Of a stretch of 64,000 nucleotides of DNA, positions 1,429-8,553 are shown one piece after another (position 1 is the stretch's first letter; the number at the start of each line of letters is the position of its first letter). The translations under genes were made by a program, and so were the position numbers. Source of the DNA: Candidatus Poribacteria bacterium (GTDB lineage: Bacteria; Poribacteria; WGA-4E; PCPOR2b); assembly GCA_965208325.1 (NCBI GenBank), contig OZ242326.1:3520001-3584000 (forward strand). The letters run 5' to 3'. Under the pieces are notes generated by a model. The model saw only the letters and a program-made list of their open reading frames with translations. It was not told the DNA's origin and searched no databases.

Positions 1429-1457
1429 TGAACTTTTCATTTCCTTGCGGTGTCATT
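1429..1457 (+). promoter_or_regulatory. candidate ECF (sigmaE-like) promoter upstream of the sigma/mini-RNAP operon
   Basis: TGAACTT-N16-GTCATT resembles the sigmaE consensus GGAACTT-N16-GTCnnA. Confidence 0.5.
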
Positions 1458-1568
1458 TAGAATGGAAGCTTACCAGATGACCTATCGCCCCGCCTTTCGC
1501 CGGTAATTCTGAAAAGCAATATCAAAATGTCCTGAACCTAAGTCGGTACTTTCTTAAGCTGATGAGCA

Positions 1569-2174
1569 TTGATATTACAATCCGATGAACTTCTCATTGA
1601 TAAGATTCTTCAACGCGATGCGGAGGCGTTTGAAGTGCTTTGGGCACGATATAGCGCGTCCGTCCGCCAACACATCATACGCACCGTACAGGACGAAAGT
1701 GCGGCCGAGGATTTGGTTCAGGAAGCATTCTTGCGTCTATGGACATCCGCTGAACAGTGGGACGGACGCGGTAGTTTCAAGGGGTGGTTCTTCCGCATCG
1801 CTACAAATCTCGCTCTCAATTATCTGCGCGCGCTGCGGCGGCGGAAGCAACAGCCCCTCGAATTACCGCCGGATGATTTTGATGATGCGGACGAATCCGC
1901 GCCCGATCCGGATTGGATGATTGACACGTCAATACGTAGCCCCGACGCGATGTTAGTACAAGCCGAGCAGTCTAATTTGCTTTGGCGGCTTGTTGAAGAA
2001 CTCCCCGAAGATAAACGAGACGTGCTTCAGCTTGTATACCTGAAAGAGATGAATCTTCGCGACGTTGCCGCTGAGATTGGCGTCCCGGAAGGCACTGTAA
2101 AGTCGCGTTTACACTATTCGATTCGGCGCCTCGCTCAAGAATGGAAGGAGATTGCAGACGAAAACGAAGAATAG
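1569..2174 (+). CDS. ECF sigma-70 family factor
   Basis: Region 2 AEDLVQEAFLRLW...FKGWFFRIATNLALNYLR and region 4 LPEDKRDVLQL...VAAEIGVPEGTVKSRLH; TTG start. Confidence 0.95.
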   Translation: MILQSDELLIDKILQRDAEAFEVLWARYSASVRQHIIRTVQDESAAEDLVQEAFLRLWTSAEQWDGRGSFKGWFFRIATNLALNYLRALRRRKQQPLELPPDDFDDADESAPDPDWMIDTSIRSPDAMLVQAEQSNLLWRLVEELPEDKRDVLQLVYLKEMNLRDVAAEIGVPEGTVKSRLHYSIRRLAQEWKEIADENEE

Positions 2175-2221: not shown

Positions 2222-2263
2222 ACGCATTACGCATTACGCATTACGTATTACGCATTACGTATT
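2222..2263. repeat. tandem heptamer (ACGYATT)x6
   Basis: acgcatt acgcatt acgcatt acgtatt acgcatt acgtatt read directly. Confidence 0.9.
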
Positions 2264-2315: not shown

Positions 2316-5300
2316 ATGTCACACAACGTCACCGCATTTTGGCACAAAGAATCTTTTGGCAAACTGATGGGCAATCGGTTGCCAGGGCTACTCGCCGAGC
2401 GATTACCGTTAGCTGGCTTCCATTTTGAATCTGTCAGTGCTTACACCGGTTGTATCAAAATCTCCCTCACGTCAACTGATGGCGACGTTGAAGTTGAATA
2501 CGCCGACATACCGCAGCCGGACGATGAAGGGATGTTCAAAATCGACGGAGAAAATTATGTAGTTGTTCCAACGGCTTCGACCCATAAACTTAAAAAGGCA
2601 AAAATAAGATGTGTTGGGGACCAACTATACAGTTATTTCAAAATGCGCTTGAAGGGTGCTTCCCTAGACCTGTCGTGGGAAGCAGCTTCTGTACGGTCAT
2701 GGCTCCCACTTGATGAATGGTCACAGCAATTTTTTCGCGACACATTTCACGCACAGAAACTACAGGAGACCAACTGGCTCGACAAGTATAGGCATCTTCG
2801 ACGGTTATACGTTCTGAACCGCGAGAAGGTGTTCACCCCCTCCCACTTCGGGCGGGCATGCCCTTTCGAGACGCCAGAGGGACCAAACATAGGTCGAATC
2901 CTTACGATTGCTAGGGGCGCCGAGATTCGCGGCGGAAAACTGGTCGTTGTTGATGAAAACCCAGAGGCAAACCTCGGCATAGCATCGGCAATGATCCCAT
3001 TTCTTGAACACAACGATCCTGCCCGGACAATGATGGGGGCTAACATGTTGTGTCAGTGGATGGCGCCTTCGTCTCCGGAGACAGCTCCACTACGCCAAGC
3101 CAAAGAGATTCCGAGGTTGGCTGCTGCTCCGGAGCCCGCACTTGTCCAAACGGGTTACGAACCGGATGTGCCTGACTTTTGGTGCGGTCGCAACCTATTG
3201 ACCGCTTTCATTTCATGGGGCGGCGATACCTTTGAAGACGGCATCGTGATAAGCCAGTCGTGCGCAGCGCGTCTGGATTTTCCTTACGCCGTTGAACCCG
3301 GCGATAAGATTGGCAACCGCCATGGAACGAAAGGGGTCGTTTCGCGCATCCTGCCTGACGATGAGATGCCGCACCTTGACGACGGTACACCGGTGGAACT
3401 TGTATTCAGTTTCGGTGGCTTACACGCGCTAATGAACGTCGGTCAATTACGAGAGGCGGTGATGGGGCGTATTGCACGATTGGAAAATAAGCCAGCAATC
3501 GTGACGCCATTCCACGCACCGAGTGCAGGCGAATTACGCGAACGCATCAAAAACGCAGGACTTCCCGAAGACGGCATGGAGATCCTCACACTTGGGCGAG
3601 ACGGTAAGAAGTTGGCAAGACCTAGCACAGTGGGTTGGGTTTACTGGGGACGTCTGGCTCACATTGCGTTAGATAAAATAAAAGCATCCGACTCAACCAA
3701 TATTGAAGACCATAGGTACTTCCAAACGCTCGGTGAACTTGAATACGATAGACTACGCAGCGCCTCAGTATTTGAAACATTGAGGGAACATTTTAACACA
3801 CGCGCCATGAATCGGACTGATGCGTATACGTTAGCGGAGCGCCTCGCAATAGGCGAAATTGAGCAGGCGGACCCACCGACGCCGATGTTCGCTAACCTCA
3901 CGAACCGGCTCTCGGCAGCAGGAATTCGGGTTGTATTCAGCGGCGGCAAGTTGACTTTTGGATTTGCGCCGCCGAATGGGAATACGCTCAAGCTTGCTCA
4001 GCCCGTCCCTCATCCGTGGTGCCGCGATCAATTCCTTGATGAGGTCGGTATCCGTGAAGACATCCCTGAATATCACGGACTTGCCGATGTTAACGCCAGG
4101 ACTGAACGGATGCTTGCGAGTCGTACACCGGCAAGTCTAACCCGCCAATCCCTCAAGCAGCTCCAAACGCGCGTGGCAGAATATGTCAATGCGCTCCTAA
4201 GTCCAACTGTCATGAACTTTAAGTCACGGAGCCTCTTCAGCGGACGCGCCGTCATTGCGCCGTCCGCAGAGTTGCGCGCTGATCAGGTCGGTATTCCGGT
4301 AGAGATGGCGTGGTCACTCTTTGGACATCATGTTACAAAGAGACTTGGTGGAGCAGAGGAAGTACGGCGGCGTAGTCAAGATGCAACACATGTCCTGGAT
4401 GAATTGATGGCGGGTTCGTGGGTAATTATGCTTCGTCCACCGGCACATACACTCACTAACCTTGTTGCGTTTCATCCGGTGCGGCACCCCGACCGCGTCA
4501 TCCGCGTGCACCCATTCGTGTGCGAGTTGATGAACGCCAATTTTGACGGCGATCAAGCAGCAGTCTTTCTCCCAATCACTGAAAGCGGACAACGCGAAGC
4601 CGGTGAACGGCTTTCCATCGCCGGGCATCTGAAATACGACCCAAGTTTATCCAAATTGCTGGCACCGACGCATGACGCGATGTGGGGATTGGCGCATTTA
4701 AGCCTCACCCCGGAAGGGCGCGGCGAAATCGCGGAGATTATCGGCACCGACATCCCCGCCCCACACGGTCTGGTTAGACAAGATTCGCTGGCAAAGTCAC
4801 TAGAAGCCATCCTCAAATGCGATGGAATAGACCGCACGATTGAAATAGCCGAACGTCTAATGCGGCGCGGGCTCGCAATTGCTAAGGAATCGGGTGCTTC
4901 CATGAGCGCATTCATCAGCAGCCCCGCCGGCAGTCCATCCGTCCCGGTAGATCCCGACGATGCACCCGCTTGGAACGCTTATGCTGAAGAGCTGGTCGAA
5001 TGGCTTGCCGCGTGTAACGACTTCGCAGACAACAACTTGGGACCGCACATCCTTGCGGCAAAAAGCCAACACGCACATAGTAGATTTCATCGAATCGCTT
5101 GTTGTGTCGGGGGGAGAGGTACGGTTTTGGACCTTCAAGGAAGAAATATCATCGTTCGCAACGGGTATAGCGACGGTTTAACACCCGAGGAACTTTACCC
5201 GCTTTCCGTCACTTCGCGGGAGGAGATTGTGCGGCTCAATTTGGAACGGCAACGGATAGAATTGGAATTGCGCAACGACAGTGAGCCGGCAGGATTCACC

Positions 5301-5435
5301 GTCCTAGTGCGTGCAATGCGTGCCAAACACCCAGGTTTCGTTTTCGCCCGAGCCGCTGCTACCGGCGAGACCGATCCGCTTACTGATGTGGACAGCCGTC
5401 TTTTCGTCGGGCTACCTGTATCAACGGAGGAGTGA
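2316..5435 (+). CDS. single-chain minimal RNA polymerase beta/beta' fusion-like protein (two-barrel fold) with variant catalytic motif NANFDGD
   Basis: beta motifs HFGRACPFETPEGPNIG, IPFLEHNDPARTMMGANM, FEDGIVIS, GDKIGNRHGTKGVVSRILP..EMPHLDDGTPVEL. Then beta' motifs LAQPVPHPW, FSGRAVI, GIPVEMAWSLF, HPFVCELMNANFDGDQAAVFLP and C-terminal AAATGETDPL....LFVG. GGAGGAGG SD before ATG 2316. Confidence 0.93.
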   Translation: MSHNVTAFWHKESFGKLMGNRLPGLLAERLPLAGFHFESVSAYTGCIKISLTSTDGDVEVEYADIPQPDDEGMFKIDGENYVVVPTASTHKLKKAKIRCVGDQLYSYFKMRLKGASLDLSWEAASVRSWLPLDEWSQQFFRDTFHAQKLQETNWLDKYRHLRRLYVLNREKVFTPSHFGRACPFETPEGPNIGRILTIARGAEIRGGKLVVVDENPEANLGIASAMIPFLEHNDPARTMMGANMLCQWMAPSSPETAPLRQAKEIPRLAAAPEPALVQTGYEPDVPDFWCGRNLLTAFISWGGDTFEDGIVISQSCAARLDFPYAVEPGDKIGNRHGTKGVVSRILPDDEMPHLDDGTPVELVFSFGGLHALMNVGQLREAVMGRIARLENKPAIVTPFHAPSAGELRERIKNAGLPEDGMEILTLGRDGKKLARPSTVGWVYWGRLAHIALDKIKASDSTNIEDHRYFQTLGELEYDRLRSASVFETLREHFNTRAMNRTDAYTLAERLAIGEIEQADPPTPMFANLTNRLSAAGIRVVFSGGKLTFGFAPPNGNTLKLAQPVPHPWCRDQFLDEVGIREDIPEYHGLADVNARTERMLASRTPASLTRQSLKQLQTRVAEYVNALLSPTVMNFKSRSLFSGRAVIAPSAELRADQVGIPVEMAWSLFGHHVTKRLGGAEEVRRRSQDATHVLDELMAGSWVIMLRPPAHTLTNLVAFHPVRHPDRVIRVHPFVCELMNANFDGDQAAVFLPITESGQREAGERLSIAGHLKYDPSLSKLLAPTHDAMWGLAHLSLTPEGRGEIAEIIGTDIPAPHGLVRQDSLAKSLEAILKCDGIDRTIEIAERLMRRGLAIAKESGASMSAFISSPAGSPSVPVDPDDAPAWNAYAEELVEWLAACNDFADNNLGPHILAAKSQHAHSRFHRIACCVGGRGTVLDLQGRNIIVRNGYSDGLTPEELYPLSVTSREEIVRLNLERQRIELELRNDSEPAGFTVLVRAMRAKHPGFVFARAAATGETDPLTDVDSRLFVGLPVSTEE

Positions 5436-7392: not shown

Positions 7393-8553
7393 TCAGATTA
7401 TGGCGCTGTGGGCACGTAGATACTGCGCCACCTCAACACGGTCTTCGTGTTCTGCCCATGCAAGCGGGGATAGGTGATGAGCACCGTCTTTATTATTTAG
7501 GTTTGCACCTCGCTCTGCGAGAAGCATGACTATCGCGAGATGGCCCTTGAACGCCGCAAAGTGGACCGGCATCCACACTGCACCTAAGCCGGGCGGCATC
7601 GCATCTACTCGCGCGCCTCGTTCAAGCAGCAACGCGGCAACCTCCGCACGACCGTTCAAACTGGCAATACACAATGCTTCTTCGAGAATCTCTTGCGGTT
7701 CGTCCGACCGAGACTCCTCTTCAAACCAGCCGATGTCGCCGAGGTTCGGCCGATCAGATGCCGCCTCCGGCTTCAGGGTTCCATCTTCAGCAAAGTAAGA
7801 CTTTACCGAGTCAATGCCGCCGGCGCCCGCCGCCATCCAAAAGCTACACGGCGATATACCACGTTCAATCCAAAAATCGACAGCATCCCGATTCCCGTGC
7901 AACATGGCCGATTTTATCTGCCAAACGGCGGGCGATTCGTCCGAGCGTAACGCGCCGGTTTCGATGAGGAGTTGGACAGCTTTTAGATTGTTTGCCCAAA
8001 ACACTTTTTCCATTCGAGCCCCTGCTCCGATAAGGGCGCGCATTATGGGAAGTCGAGTGTCGGTGGAGATGCCTTCGATCGAGGCGGCGTATTCAAGAAG
8101 TGTGATATAGTCCTCAGATATCTCGGGCGCCTTTATCATCGCGTTGACAATGGAGGGGGCATGTTTTAACAGTTCTCTCAGTGTGTTTGAATCGCCTTTC
8201 CGGATGGTTTCAAACGCTGCACTCAAGGTTTCGTCAGTGCGCTCCGAAGGGTCGGCTCCGAGCATGATTGCACGCTCGATGAGTGCCTCCCAACTCGTAA
8301 ATCCTCTTTCACGCGCAATCACGAGTTGCGCCTCTTTTAATGACAGGTCCGAGGCGCGGACTTGTTCATATTTTGCACCCGCAAATCGCGGCAGGTATTC
8401 CCGAAGGCGGTGAGCAGCCCAACGCAAACCGGATTGATGCGCCTTCAATAGAATTCGCGCTAGTCTCTGGTAGTAGGCGCCGCCTTTCCCCCATCCCCAC
8501 AACATATGGTCGCGCGGATCTCGCGTGGCGTGCTCGATCGAGTTCGCAGTCAT
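7393..8553 (-). CDS. ankyrin-repeat protein
   Basis: N-terminal EAQLVIARERGFTSW motif; ankyrin repeats ALCIASLNGRAEVAALLLERGA and PVHFAAFKGHLAIVMLLAERGA. Confidence 0.85.
   Translation of the reverse strand: MTANSIEHATRDPRDHMLWGWGKGGAYYQRLARILLKAHQSGLRWAAHRLREYLPRFAGAKYEQVRASDLSLKEAQLVIARERGFTSWEALIERAIMLGADPSERTDETLSAAFETIRKGDSNTLRELLKHAPSIVNAMIKAPEISEDYITLLEYAASIEGISTDTRLPIMRALIGAGARMEKVFWANNLKAVQLLIETGALRSDESPAVWQIKSAMLHGNRDAVDFWIERGISPCSFWMAAGAGGIDSVKSYFAEDGTLKPEAASDRPNLGDIGWFEEESRSDEPQEILEEALCIASLNGRAEVAALLLERGARVDAMPPGLGAVWMPVHFAAFKGHLAIVMLLAERGANLNNKDGAHHLSPLAWAEHEDRVEVAQYLRAHSAII

What the first reader, a model, noticed from the sequence alone, without database searches (positions are those of the whole stretch)
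4533..4553. Catalytic motif reads NANFDGD instead of NADFDGD
Seen: AAC GCC AAT TTT GAC GGC GAT, so the first Mg-ligand Asp is Asn (one base from GAT). The beta PSRMN arginine appears as HALMN (L at 3429-3431) and beta' SGARG as SQHAHS. The FED acidic pair, both lysines of GDK....HG.KG and the RLAH histidine are kept. Established: the three Asp residues bind catalytic Mg-A. Inference: the protein may be a pseudo-enzyme (sigma or nucleic-acid scaffold), may have altered chemistry, or this may be a strain-specific inactivating change in an otherwise active family.
Basis: partly seen in the sequence, partly recalled or inferred. Interest (0 to 1): 0.85.

Follow-up and report, generated by a model that had tools for sequence, protein, structure and literature searches.

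The report
Asn-for-Asp variant of sigma-coupled mini RNA polymerase
A sponge-symbiont bacterium carries, beside its normal RNA polymerase, a small one-chain polymerase-like protein paired with its own sigma factor, and in this whole genus its first magnesium-binding aspartate has been replaced by asparagine while the gene stays under selection, so it is probably a polymerase turned into a non-catalytic or very weak one.

Summary
Window 4533-4553 reads NANFDGD in a 1039-aa ORF (2316-5435, +). The ORF is a pruned beta::beta' fusion encoded just after an ECF-type sigma gene (1569-2174).

It is neither a sequencing error nor a strain allele:
- All 4 genomes of the genus carry codon AAT, and 8 of 8 protein clusters of that clade have Asn.
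- In the wider family, 175 of 187 full-length members keep Asp, 10 have Asn and 2 have Gly.
- Trees require at least 4 independent Asp-to-Asn changes.

The Asn-clade gene is under purifying selection (dN/dS 0.18-0.27, against a median of 0.14 in the Asp-bearing sister genus). Its sigma partner is too (0.14-0.21).

Within the Asn clade, three otherwise near-invariant arginines are being lost patchily: the equivalents of E. coli beta R678, R687 and R1106. The two lysines, the other two aspartates and most other conserved columns are kept.

Best reading (about 0.5): a catalytically dead or crippled mini-polymerase kept for a sigma- or DNA-binding role. The main rival (about 0.3) is a slow or chemically altered but still active enzyme.

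I found no paper describing the sigma-plus-fusion family.

The parts
1429..1454 (+). Promoter-like motif TGAACTTTT-N9-GCGGTGTC upstream of the sigma gene (ECF-type -35/-10 look; function inferred)
   Evidence: The same motif is conserved upstream of sigma in 7 of 7 sister-genus loci examined. It is the only zero-mismatch match in the 4.7-Mb genome. The 2-mismatch hits (2) are at control level (1).
1569..2174 (+). ECF-type sigma-70 family gene, TTG start, 201 aa: the conserved partner of the fusion protein
   Evidence: Pfam Sigma70_r2 4.6e-18 and Sigma70_r4 1.5e-12. NCBIfam sigma70-ECF 119.7 bits against a cut-off of 42.9. An orthologue lies upstream on the same strand in 65 of 69 family loci; the other 4 have no upstream DNA. 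dN/dS within the genus is 0.14-0.21.
2222..2263 (.). Tandem heptamer ACGCATT x6 in the sigma-polymerase spacer (role unknown)
   Evidence: Tandem Repeats Finder: period 7, 6.0 copies, 91% matches.
2316..5435 (+). 1039-aa single-chain beta::beta' fusion ('mini RNA polymerase'), preceded by a GGGAGGAGGAG ribosome-binding site
   Evidence: Pfam Rpb2_3 (aa 148-204, 5.8e-09), Rpb2_6 (326-458, 7.3e-39) and Rpb1_2 (690-763, 4.7e-16). PDB hits to beta (4.6e-40) and beta' (3e-18). AF2 model with pLDDT 90.9 and pTM 0.88. Foldseek top hits are RNAP beta chains, E 5e-23. RBS seen.
3024..3026 (+). R237, equivalent of E. coli beta R678 (NTP gamma-phosphate contact). Kept in this allele; Gln in 4 of 8 clusters of the clade
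   Evidence: The role comes from passages of PMC13198411.
3051..3053 (+). C246, equivalent of E. coli beta R687. The family has R in 182 of 187; all 4 Cys are in the Asn clade
3231..3239 (+). FED (aa 306-308), equivalent of beta E813/D814. Kept
   Evidence: The names of the residues come from passages of PMC5856549.
3300..3335 (+). GDKIGNRHGTKG (aa 329-340). K331 and K339 are the equivalents of beta K1065 and K1073. Kept
   Evidence: (query 323-388 aligned to E. coli beta 1057-1122).
3429..3431 (+). L372, equivalent of beta R1106 (NTP gamma-phosphate and pyrophosphate contact). The family has R in 181 of 187; both Leu are in the Asn clade
4533..4553 (+). NANFDGD (aa 740-746). The first Mg-ligand Asp (E. 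coli beta' D460) is Asn742, codon AAT at 4539-4541
5064..5081 (+). SQHAHS (aa 917-922) in place of SGARG. H921 sits where beta' R731 would be
   Evidence: (low-scoring alignment).

Best explanation
The gene encodes a member of a widespread two-gene module, so far found in no paper I could search. The module is an ECF-type sigma factor followed by a roughly 1000-residue single chain that joins the catalytic cores of RNA polymerase beta and beta'. The flap is removed, and there is probably no trigger loop.

In most lineages the chain keeps the full set of catalytic residues. It is presumably a small sigma-dependent RNA polymerase, although no member has been assayed.

In this Poribacteria genus the first aspartate of the metal-binding triad became asparagine in the common ancestor. 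In E. coli that residue (beta' D460) helps hold both catalytic magnesium ions.

I infer that this abolished or crippled nucleotide addition, because the arginines that grip the incoming nucleotide's phosphates then began to drift in different sublineages. The rest of the protein and its sigma partner stayed under purifying selection.

So the protein is most likely retained for something that needs the fold, the sigma contact and nucleic-acid binding, but not synthesis. Examples would be holding or titrating its sigma, or sitting on or opening its one recognisable promoter.

Shown: the substitution, its fixation and recurrence, the selection figures, the arginine erosion and the sigma linkage. 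Inferred: loss of activity and the non-catalytic role.
For: (1) Fixation.
- Codon AAT is present in 4 of 4 genomes of the genus, against GAC/GAT in 12 of 12 sister-genus orthologues.
- Asn is present in 8 of 8 clusters of the clade.

(2) Selection.
- Nei-Gojobori dN/dS is 0.18-0.27 over 6 pairs, with dS 0.21-0.48. The sister genus has a median of 0.14 (range 0.10-0.19, 66 pairs).
- Sigma shows 0.14-0.21 against a sister-genus median of 0.13.
- Of 251 columns conserved at 85% or more in the other 177 proteins, 9 are flagged as differing in the clade, and 8 of those differ in all 8 of its clusters.

(3) Erosion concentrated at the NTP pocket.
- Among 187 full-length proteins, every Gln at aa 237 (4), every Cys at aa 246 (4) and every Leu at aa 372 (2) lies in this clade.
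- The 30 sister-clade sequences, including the two young Asn ones, have none.
- At 102 ultra-conserved columns the clade deviates 2-5 times per sequence (mean 3.4), against 0.83 in the sister clade.

(4) The same pairing in other Asn lineages.
- L071 (Chloroflexota) has D742N with R237H, E307A, D308E and R372G.
- L084 has D742N with R372Q.

(5) The first Asp is hit preferentially.
- At least 4 independent Asp-to-Asn changes occur there.
- Across 187 sequences, the third Asp is Asn once and the second never.
- This pattern fits a tolerated or selected switch better than random decay.

(6) Role of the residues.
- D460 ligates Mg A and Mg B.
- Beta R678 and R1106 hold the gamma-phosphate, and K1073 holds the alpha-phosphate (passages of PMC13198411; PMC5856549).

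(7) No second copy of the fusion exists in the genome that could supply activity.

(8) Sigma linkage.
- A sigma orthologue lies upstream in 65 of 69 loci. In 60 of them it lies within about 270 nt or overlaps the polymerase gene.
- Nothing else is conserved around the module.

(9) Weak only: a complex prediction of sigma with residues 460-1039.
- Score 0.46, best of 3 controls 0.00.
- That mark was reached by 116 of 157 solved complexes and 2 of 215 mismatches. At 0.60 or under it was reached by only 18 of the 157 solved complexes and by both mismatches.
- The runs agree in at least 32% of contacts, and the partner pLDDT is at least 58.
- Sigma-beta' complexes are solved, so the pass may come from memory.
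Against: No activity was measured for any family member, so 'dead' is an inference.

Asn can still ligate a metal through its carbonyl oxygen. D744, D746, K331, K339, E307, D308, H449 and R707 are kept in all 8 clusters of the clade. That retention would also fit a still-working, slower active site.

The young Asn lineage (P0027, P0031) and P0002 have no other key change.

Erosion of single key residues is also common in Asp-bearing members: 64 of 175 deviate at one or more of the other 11 key positions, most often E307. The association with Asn is therefore not exclusive.

The rise in dN/dS is modest. The pairwise Nei-Gojobori figures come from my own script, not from a branch model.

Kin are not independent: the clade counts as one event, so there are only four Asn lineages in all.

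In this allele the sigma has lost the ATG that its relatives use and starts at a TTG without an obvious ribosome-binding site. This could point to decay of the module.
Confidence: 0.5

Rival explanations
1. The protein is still an RNA polymerase. Asn742 with D744 and D746 still binds metal A. Catalysis is slower, or prefers Mn, or uses a substrate or reaction that does not need the gamma-phosphate pocket (for example hydrolytic or primer-type chemistry). The Asn would then be an adaptive tuning of rate or chemistry.
For: - The other 8 charged key residues are kept in 8 of 8 clusters of the clade.
- Asn itself is unchanged in all 8 clusters and in four independent lineages, as if that residue were selected.
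- The residues lost (R678, R1106 and R687 equivalents) all lie on the triphosphate/pyrophosphate side. The residues on the alpha-phosphate/3'-end side (K1073, K1065, D462 and D464 equivalents) are kept.
- The gene and its sigma are under purifying selection.
Against: The triad is described as invariant and D460 as a ligand of both metals (passages).

I recall that single substitutions of the triad in E. coli sharply reduce all activities (Sosunov 2005). I saw that paper only as a reference entry and could not read it.

Beta R678 and R1106 are called universally conserved NTP contacts, so losing them as well is hard to square with normal NTP use.
Confidence: 0.3
2. The module is a functionless relic in this genus, decaying slowly toward loss. 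The Asn was the first hit.
For: - The family is dispensable. It was not found in 4 of 16 sister-genus genomes. It is split in two in G020 and reduced to a 159-aa remnant in G006. It was not found in two other families of the order (0 of 6 and 0 of 5).
- dN/dS is higher than in the sister genus.
- The sigma start codon is degraded in this allele and in L037.
- Further catalytic residues have been lost.
Against: - The full-length frame is open in 4 of 4 genomes at dS up to 0.48, with dN/dS of 0.18-0.27, far below 1.
- Sigma shows 0.14-0.21.
- In this allele 97 of 102 ultra-conserved columns are intact.
- A strong ribosome-binding site is kept.
Confidence: 0.12
3. The Asn is a sequencing or assembly error, or a private allele of this strain.
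For: It is one base away from GAT.
Against: - AAT is present in 4 of 4 genomes of the genus.
- Asn is present in 8 protein clusters drawn from several sources.
- Contigs of 3 independent runs cover the site, and no difference is listed there.
Confidence: 0.01

Closest known systems
Bacterial RNA polymerase beta (RpoB) and beta' (RpoC), including the natural full-length beta/beta' fusions (NCBIfam NF011417, NF007172)
   Same: - Both double-psi barrels are present.
- The shared motifs include ETPEGPNIG, IPFLEH..R..MGANM, FED, GDK..HG.KG, FSGRAVI and xADFDGD.
- The order is beta then beta'.
- HMMER E-values are 4.6e-40 to beta and 3e-18 to beta'. NCBIfam hits lie far below the equivalog cut-offs.
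   Different: - The protein has 1039 aa instead of about 2700.
- About 20 residues lie between FED and GDK, where beta carries the flap.
- The chain ends about 50 residues after the presumed bridge helix, so a trigger loop is unlikely.
- The first triad Asp is Asn.
- The genome has separate, normal rpoB and rpoC genes.
Sigma-coupled single-chain mini RNA polymerase family (unnamed; scan note e1-1516490; no paper found)
   Same: - Same architecture and length.
- 50-89% identity over the full length.
- The ECF-type sigma orthologue lies directly upstream.
- The family is spread over Poribacteria, Chloroflexota, Planctomycetota, Latescibacterota, Armatimonadota, Hydrogenedentota and others.
   Different: - This clade has Asn at the first Mg ligand; 175 of 187 members have Asp.
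- This clade also shows clade-specific loss of the R678, R687 and R1106 equivalents.
Yeast killer-plasmid pGKL2 Orf6, a 982-aa Rpb2::Rpb1 fusion (passages of PMC2919709)
   Same: It is a single chain of about 1000 aa in the order Rpb2/beta then Rpb1/beta', with about half of each subunit deleted.
   Different: It is of eukaryotic plasmid origin and has no sigma partner. I did not compare the sequences, and it is described as keeping the DxDxD signature.
YonO-type single-subunit two-barrel RNA polymerases of prophages (passages of PMC7824862)
   Same: Both barrels are on one chain, as a small accessory polymerase in bacteria.
   Different: According to that paper, YonO-type proteins are closer to the eukaryotic RNA-dependent polymerases and lack the beta-type inserts. 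The present protein gives strong direct hits to RpoB and RpoC, and PHROGs returns only beta/beta'-like families.

Membership tests
Two-barrel, multisubunit-type RNA polymerase catalytic core | Beta-type double-psi barrel with the two lysines (GDK....HG.KG) | tested here: met
   K331 and K339 align with E. coli beta K1065 and K1073. Pfam Rpb2_6 scores 7.3e-39.
Two-barrel, multisubunit-type RNA polymerase catalytic core | Beta'-type barrel with the invariant Asp triad (NADFDGD / DxDGD) | tested here: not met
   The motif reads NANFDGD; the first Asp is Asn742. The barrel itself is present: Pfam Rpb1_2 scores 4.7e-16.
Two-barrel, multisubunit-type RNA polymerase catalytic core | Universally conserved NTP-contact arginines (beta R678, R1106) | tested here: not met
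   R237 (the R678 equivalent) is kept. The R1106 equivalent is L372.
Two-barrel, multisubunit-type RNA polymerase catalytic core | Bridge helix and trigger loop | tested here: inconclusive
   The model has a long helix at 957-988, placed after the SGARG-like stretch. Only 51 residues follow it. The sequence alignment in this region is below significance.
Two-barrel, multisubunit-type RNA polymerase catalytic core | Template-dependent RNA synthesis | not testable with these tools
   This needs a biochemical assay.
Sigma-coupled single-chain mini RNA polymerase family (undescribed) | About 950-1100 aa, beta::beta' order, with Pfam Rpb2_3 + Rpb2_6 + Rpb1_2, and full-length similarity to the family | tested here: met
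   In one search the 119 listed relatives all have E = 0, with 49-89% identity and 95-100% coverage.
Sigma-coupled single-chain mini RNA polymerase family (undescribed) | Orthologous ECF-type sigma gene upstream on the same strand | tested here: met
   Window 1569-2174. The same arrangement is seen in 65 of 69 loci; the other 4 lack upstream DNA.
Pseudoenzyme (dead homologue kept by selection) | Loss of a residue essential for catalysis | tested here: met
   D742N, plus R372L and R246C in this allele.
Pseudoenzyme (dead homologue kept by selection) | Purifying selection after the loss | tested here: met
   dN/dS is 0.18-0.27 within the Asn clade. These are pairwise figures, not a branch model.
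Pseudoenzyme (dead homologue kept by selection) | Demonstrated absence of activity, together with a separate function | not testable with these tools
   This needs an assay of wild type against an Asn-to-Asp revertant.
Known anti-phage defence systems (PADLOC) | A match to any PADLOC model | tested here: not met
   0 families matched for either the fusion protein or sigma.

The most novel reading that the evidence does not exclude
The Asp-to-Asn change at the first metal ligand is a recurrent, selected switch. It converts a sigma-dependent mini RNA polymerase into a natural 'dead polymerase'. Such a protein would still bind its sigma and promoter DNA, or an RNA 3' end. It would act as a regulator, for example as a sigma sink or a promoter-bound roadblock. 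Alternatively, the change shifts the enzyme to a chemistry that no longer uses the triphosphate pocket. Either way this would be the first natural multisubunit-type polymerase core shown to work without the 'invariant' NADFDGD triad.
Probability: 0.3. Interest if true: 0.8.

Novelty: new variant of a known kind. Interest (0 to 1): 0.62.

Why it matters
The NADFDGD triad is treated as invariant in all RNA polymerases of this type. Here it is broken at the same residue at least four separate times, inside a family that is itself uncharacterised: a one-chain, sigma-coupled miniature of the bacterial enzyme found in many phyla.

If the Asn forms are inactive but selected, they show that the polymerase scaffold has a use apart from synthesis. 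They would also provide ready-made natural controls, as Asp and Asn orthologues at 67-69% identity, for working out what the family does.

If the Asn forms are active, they bear on how strictly the two-metal site needs three carboxylates.

The module is small (two genes, about 3.9 kb) and has one recognisable promoter, so it is directly testable in vitro.

Tried and rejected
- Expression. No RNA holder was listed among the 24 runs returned, so nothing can be said about expression.
- Reads. Only Logan contigs could be laid, not raw reads. Run X8 did not cover 4384-4559, and 28 differences were not shown.
- Regulon. The promoter-like motif with up to 2 mismatches finds only the module's own promoter. 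It gave 3 hits, one with 0 mismatches, against 1 control hit. A looser motif was not tried, so this does not show that there are no other targets.
- Defence system. PADLOC gave 0 hits. PHROGs gave only beta/beta'- and sigma-like families.
- Conserved neighbours. All-against-all clustering of ORFs from 70 loci found only the fusion (70 loci), its antisense shadow frames and sigma (66 loci). The next cluster covers 18 loci and holds a frame lying inside the sigma gene itself. The largest cluster outside the module covers 10 loci.
- An apparent link between the ankyrin protein at 7393-8553 and the sigma cluster was a single-linkage artefact (BLASTP E 2.1).
- Complex prediction gave only weak support: 0.46 against a best control of 0.00. 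No interface was returned, so the idea that helices 584-627 are the sigma-docking clamp helices rests only on their position before FSGRAVI in the model.
- Literature. Searches listed no paper describing a bacterial sigma-plus-beta::beta' mini-polymerase or an NANFDGD motif.
- Papers that could not be read: Iyer & Aravind 2012 (J Struct Biol), which might mention the family, and Sosunov 2003 and 2005.
- Earlier findings of this scan looked up by sequence: none.
Full report
**What is there**

Window 4533-4553 reads AAC GCC AAT TTT GAC GGC GAT. It is in frame with an ORF at 2316-5435 (+) of 1039 aa. The ORF matches three Pfam domains:
- Rpb2 domain 3 (aa 148-204, 5.8e-09)
- Rpb2 domain 6 (aa 326-458, 7.3e-39)
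- Rpb1 domain 2 (aa 690-763, 4.7e-16)

It also hits solved bacterial beta chains (best 4.6e-40) and beta' chains (3e-18) in that order along the chain. It is therefore a pruned beta::beta' fusion.

An AlphaFold2 model built on 33 relatives is confident (mean pLDDT 90.9, pTM 0.88). Its best Foldseek matches are RNAP beta chains (E 5e-23).

The genome is one 4.7-Mb contig. It has its own separate rpoB and rpoC, and that rpoC keeps NADFDGD. There is no second copy of the fusion.

Record titles of near relatives and the run labels point to a Candidatus Poribacteria bacterium from sponges.

All are confirmed:
- N740-A-N742-F-D-G-D746
- HALMN at aa 370-374, with L372 at nt 3429-3431
- SQHAHS at aa 917-922
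- FED at aa 306-308
- GDK....HG.KG at aa 329-340
- RLAH at aa 446-449

Ungapped HMMER stretches to E. coli chains fix the numbering:

| Residue here | E. coli equivalent | Source |
|---|---|---|
| K331, K339 | beta K1065, K1073 | |
| L372 | beta R1106 | |
| R237 | beta R678 | |
| C246 | beta R687 | |
| N742 | beta' D460 | |

Passages of PMC13198411 and PMC5856549 describe the roles of these residues:
- D460, D462 and D464 ligate Mg A.
- D460 and D462 also ligate Mg B.
- Beta R678 and R1106 hold the NTP gamma-phosphate.
- K1073 holds the alpha-phosphate.
- Beta' R731 and beta R1106 hold the leaving pyrophosphate.

**The family**

The protein belongs to a large family of similar length:
- 119 relatives are listed with E = 0 and 49-89% identity.
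- 412 cluster representatives score at E <= 1e-30.

The 69 loci kept come from these groups:
- Poribacteria
- Chloroflexota
- Planctomycetota
- Latescibacterota
- Armatimonadota
- Hydrogenedentota
- a Gemmatimonadaceae genome
- a Limnochordia genome
- a Moanabacter genome

The gene upstream in the window (1569-2174, +) is an ECF-type sigma. A strongly similar sigma (E 1e-27 to 1e-116) lies upstream on the same strand in 65 of the 69 loci. The other 4 loci begin at or within 141 nt of the polymerase gene. In 60 of the 65 the gap is at most about 270 nt or the genes overlap. In 5 it is 0.9-3 kb.

Clustering all ORFs of 70 loci found nothing else shared beyond 10 loci. The unit is therefore two genes: sigma plus the single-chain core. 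PADLOC does not know it.

My reach the same picture independently.

I found no paper on it. Iyer & Aravind 2012, which I could not open, might mention it.

**Asp or Asn in the family**

In a MAFFT alignment of the 187 full-length proteins held (900-1120 aa), the column of residue 742 has D 175, N 10 and G 2. The second and third Asp are D in 185 and 184 sequences.

The ten Asn sequences fall into two groups:
- the eight clusters nearest the query (79-100% identity)
- P0027 and P0031 (67%)

Whole-genome searches give the same picture. The gene is present in 24 of 41 genomes searched, including all 4 of the window's genus and 12 of 16 of the sister genus. All 4 genus orthologues have AAT. The 12 sister orthologues have GAC or GAT.

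Among the genome loci, two more Asn forms appear: L071 (Chloroflexota) and L084 (another Poribacteria lineage, whose sister L080 has Asp).

Two trees bear on the number of origins:
- A quick IQ-TREE of 47 rows forces at least 2 changes of the label.
- A FastTree of 64 rows forces at least 4. I chose those rows: all 58 locus proteins of at least 900 aa, the query and five added clusters.

The change is therefore neither an error nor a private allele. Contigs from three other studies also cover the site with no listed difference (with the caveats given under Tried and rejected).

**Is the Asn gene alive?**

Pairwise Nei-Gojobori estimates from my own script give:

| Gene | Asn genus | Sister genus |
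|---|---|---|
| Fusion, dN/dS | 0.18-0.27 (6 pairs, dS 0.21-0.48) | median 0.14, range 0.10-0.19 (66 pairs) |
| Sigma, dN/dS | 0.14-0.21 | median 0.13 |

Other evidence of constraint:
- Of 251 columns conserved at 85% or more in the other 177 proteins, 9 are flagged as differing in the clade, and 8 of those differ in all 8 of its clusters.
- Of 102 columns conserved at 95% or more in 148 outgroup proteins, the query keeps 97.
- A strong ribosome-binding site precedes the ATG.

So the gene is constrained, somewhat less than in the sister genus.

**What has decayed**

The clade's departures at ultra-conserved columns (mean 3.4 per sequence, against 0.83 in the sister clade) are concentrated in the nucleotide pocket:
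- aa 237 (R678 equivalent) is Gln in 4 of 8 clusters.
- aa 246 (R687 equivalent) is Cys in 4 of 8.
- aa 372 (R1106 equivalent) is Leu in 2 of 8.

These are the only Q, C and L at those columns among 187 proteins. The 30 sister-clade sequences have none.

The changes are patchy within the clade, so they came after the Asn.

L071 combines D742N with R237H, E307A, D308E and R372G. L084 combines D742N with R372Q.

By contrast K331, K339, E307, D308, H449, R707, D744 and D746 are kept in all 8 clusters.

The SGARG motif was already degenerate before the Asn arose. The sister genus has KSRAFTS, while distant members have KSGA-RG.

**Counter-evidence**

- The family as a whole is not uniformly canonical. 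Only 111 of 187 proteins have all 12 key residues. 64 of the 175 Asp-bearing ones deviate somewhere, most often at E307.
- One Chloroflexota subclade (L083, L087, L093, L095) keeps DFDGD but has E307A, D308Y and R372T.
- P0002, P0027 and P0031 carry Asn with no other key change.
- No member has been assayed.
- Asn can still ligate a metal.

**Mechanism proposed**

Sigma and the core probably form a two-protein holoenzyme. This is inferred from the invariant pairing. It is also suggested by two long helices (584-601 and 606-627) that sit where the beta' clamp helices would be, just before FSGRAVI.

A complex prediction gave only weak support:
- The score was 0.46 and the best of 3 controls was 0.00.
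- That mark was reached by 116 of 157 solved complexes and 2 of 215 mismatches. At 0.60 or under it was reached by only 18 of the 157 solved complexes and by both mismatches.
- The runs agree in at least 32% of contacts, and the partner pLDDT is at least 58.
- A pass could come from memory of solved sigma-beta' complexes.

A conserved ECF-like promoter motif, TGAACTTTT-N9-GCGGTGTC, precedes sigma in both genera. It occurs only there in this genome at 0 mismatches. This suggests autoregulation.

In this genus the loss of the bridging carboxylate, followed by loss of the gamma-phosphate arginines, most likely means nucleotide addition is gone or very poor. The protein would then be kept for sigma or nucleic-acid binding. 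I put this at about 0.5. The other readings are:
- a still-active but altered enzyme, about 0.3
- a slowly dying relic, about 0.12
- an artefact, about 0.01

**Novelty and verdict**

The two-barrel polymerase is a known kind. The sigma-coupled single-chain family seems undescribed in print but was already noted by this scan.

The new point here is a natural, fixed and recurrent Asn at the first ligand of the 'invariant' triad, under purifying selection and with secondary erosion of the NTP pocket. I class it as a new variant of a known kind, interest 0.62. It is surprising to a transcription specialist and directly testable. But the function of the family, and even its activity, are still unknown.

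Noticed in passing
window 2222-2263: A tandem heptamer ACGCATT x6 lies in the 141-nt spacer between the sigma stop and the polymerase start. The upstream in-frame translation of the closest orthologue locus, L006, shows the same repeat-derived peptide.
   Followed up: no
L009, L011, L013, L019, L020 (sister-genus orthologues), aa about 537-542 of the protein: Many sister-genus proteins carry a second 'ANFDGD' in a beta-hairpin about 200 residues before the catalytic motif. Its DNA (GCT AAC TTT GAT GGT GAC) is almost the same as that of the catalytic ADFDGD. A short intragenic conversion from this copy could create the Asn. This is pure speculation; a single G-to-A change suffices.
   Followed up: partly
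window 1455-1575; L037, L043, L044: In this genus about 110 nt separate the promoter-like motif from the sigma start. In the sister genus the ATG follows the motif by about 25 nt. The window and L037 have ATA where relatives have the ATG, and must start at a TTG one codon upstream. L044 has no canonical start at that place.
   Followed up: partly
G020:C2:821095-824204 (L021, L029); G006:C1:2648692-2649147 (L028): One sister-genus genome has the fusion gene split into two open frames (610 and 497 aa). Another genus keeps only a 159-aa C-terminal remnant. 4 of 16 sister-genus genomes gave no match. The module is therefore dispensable and sometimes lost.
   Followed up: no
L083, L087, L093, L095 (Chloroflexota): This subclade keeps DFDGD but has E307A, D308Y, R372T and SGTGG. 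It is another, different route of active-site erosion in an intact ORF.
   Followed up: no
sigma orthologues in L036-L103: The sigma proteins of the module often end in an acidic W-E-E/D tail. Their stop often abuts or overlaps the polymerase start, which suggests translational coupling.
   Followed up: no
L059, L061, L065, L097, L045: In 5 loci the sigma gene lies 0.9-3 kb upstream rather than adjacent, so something is inserted between the two genes. I did not look at what.
   Followed up: no
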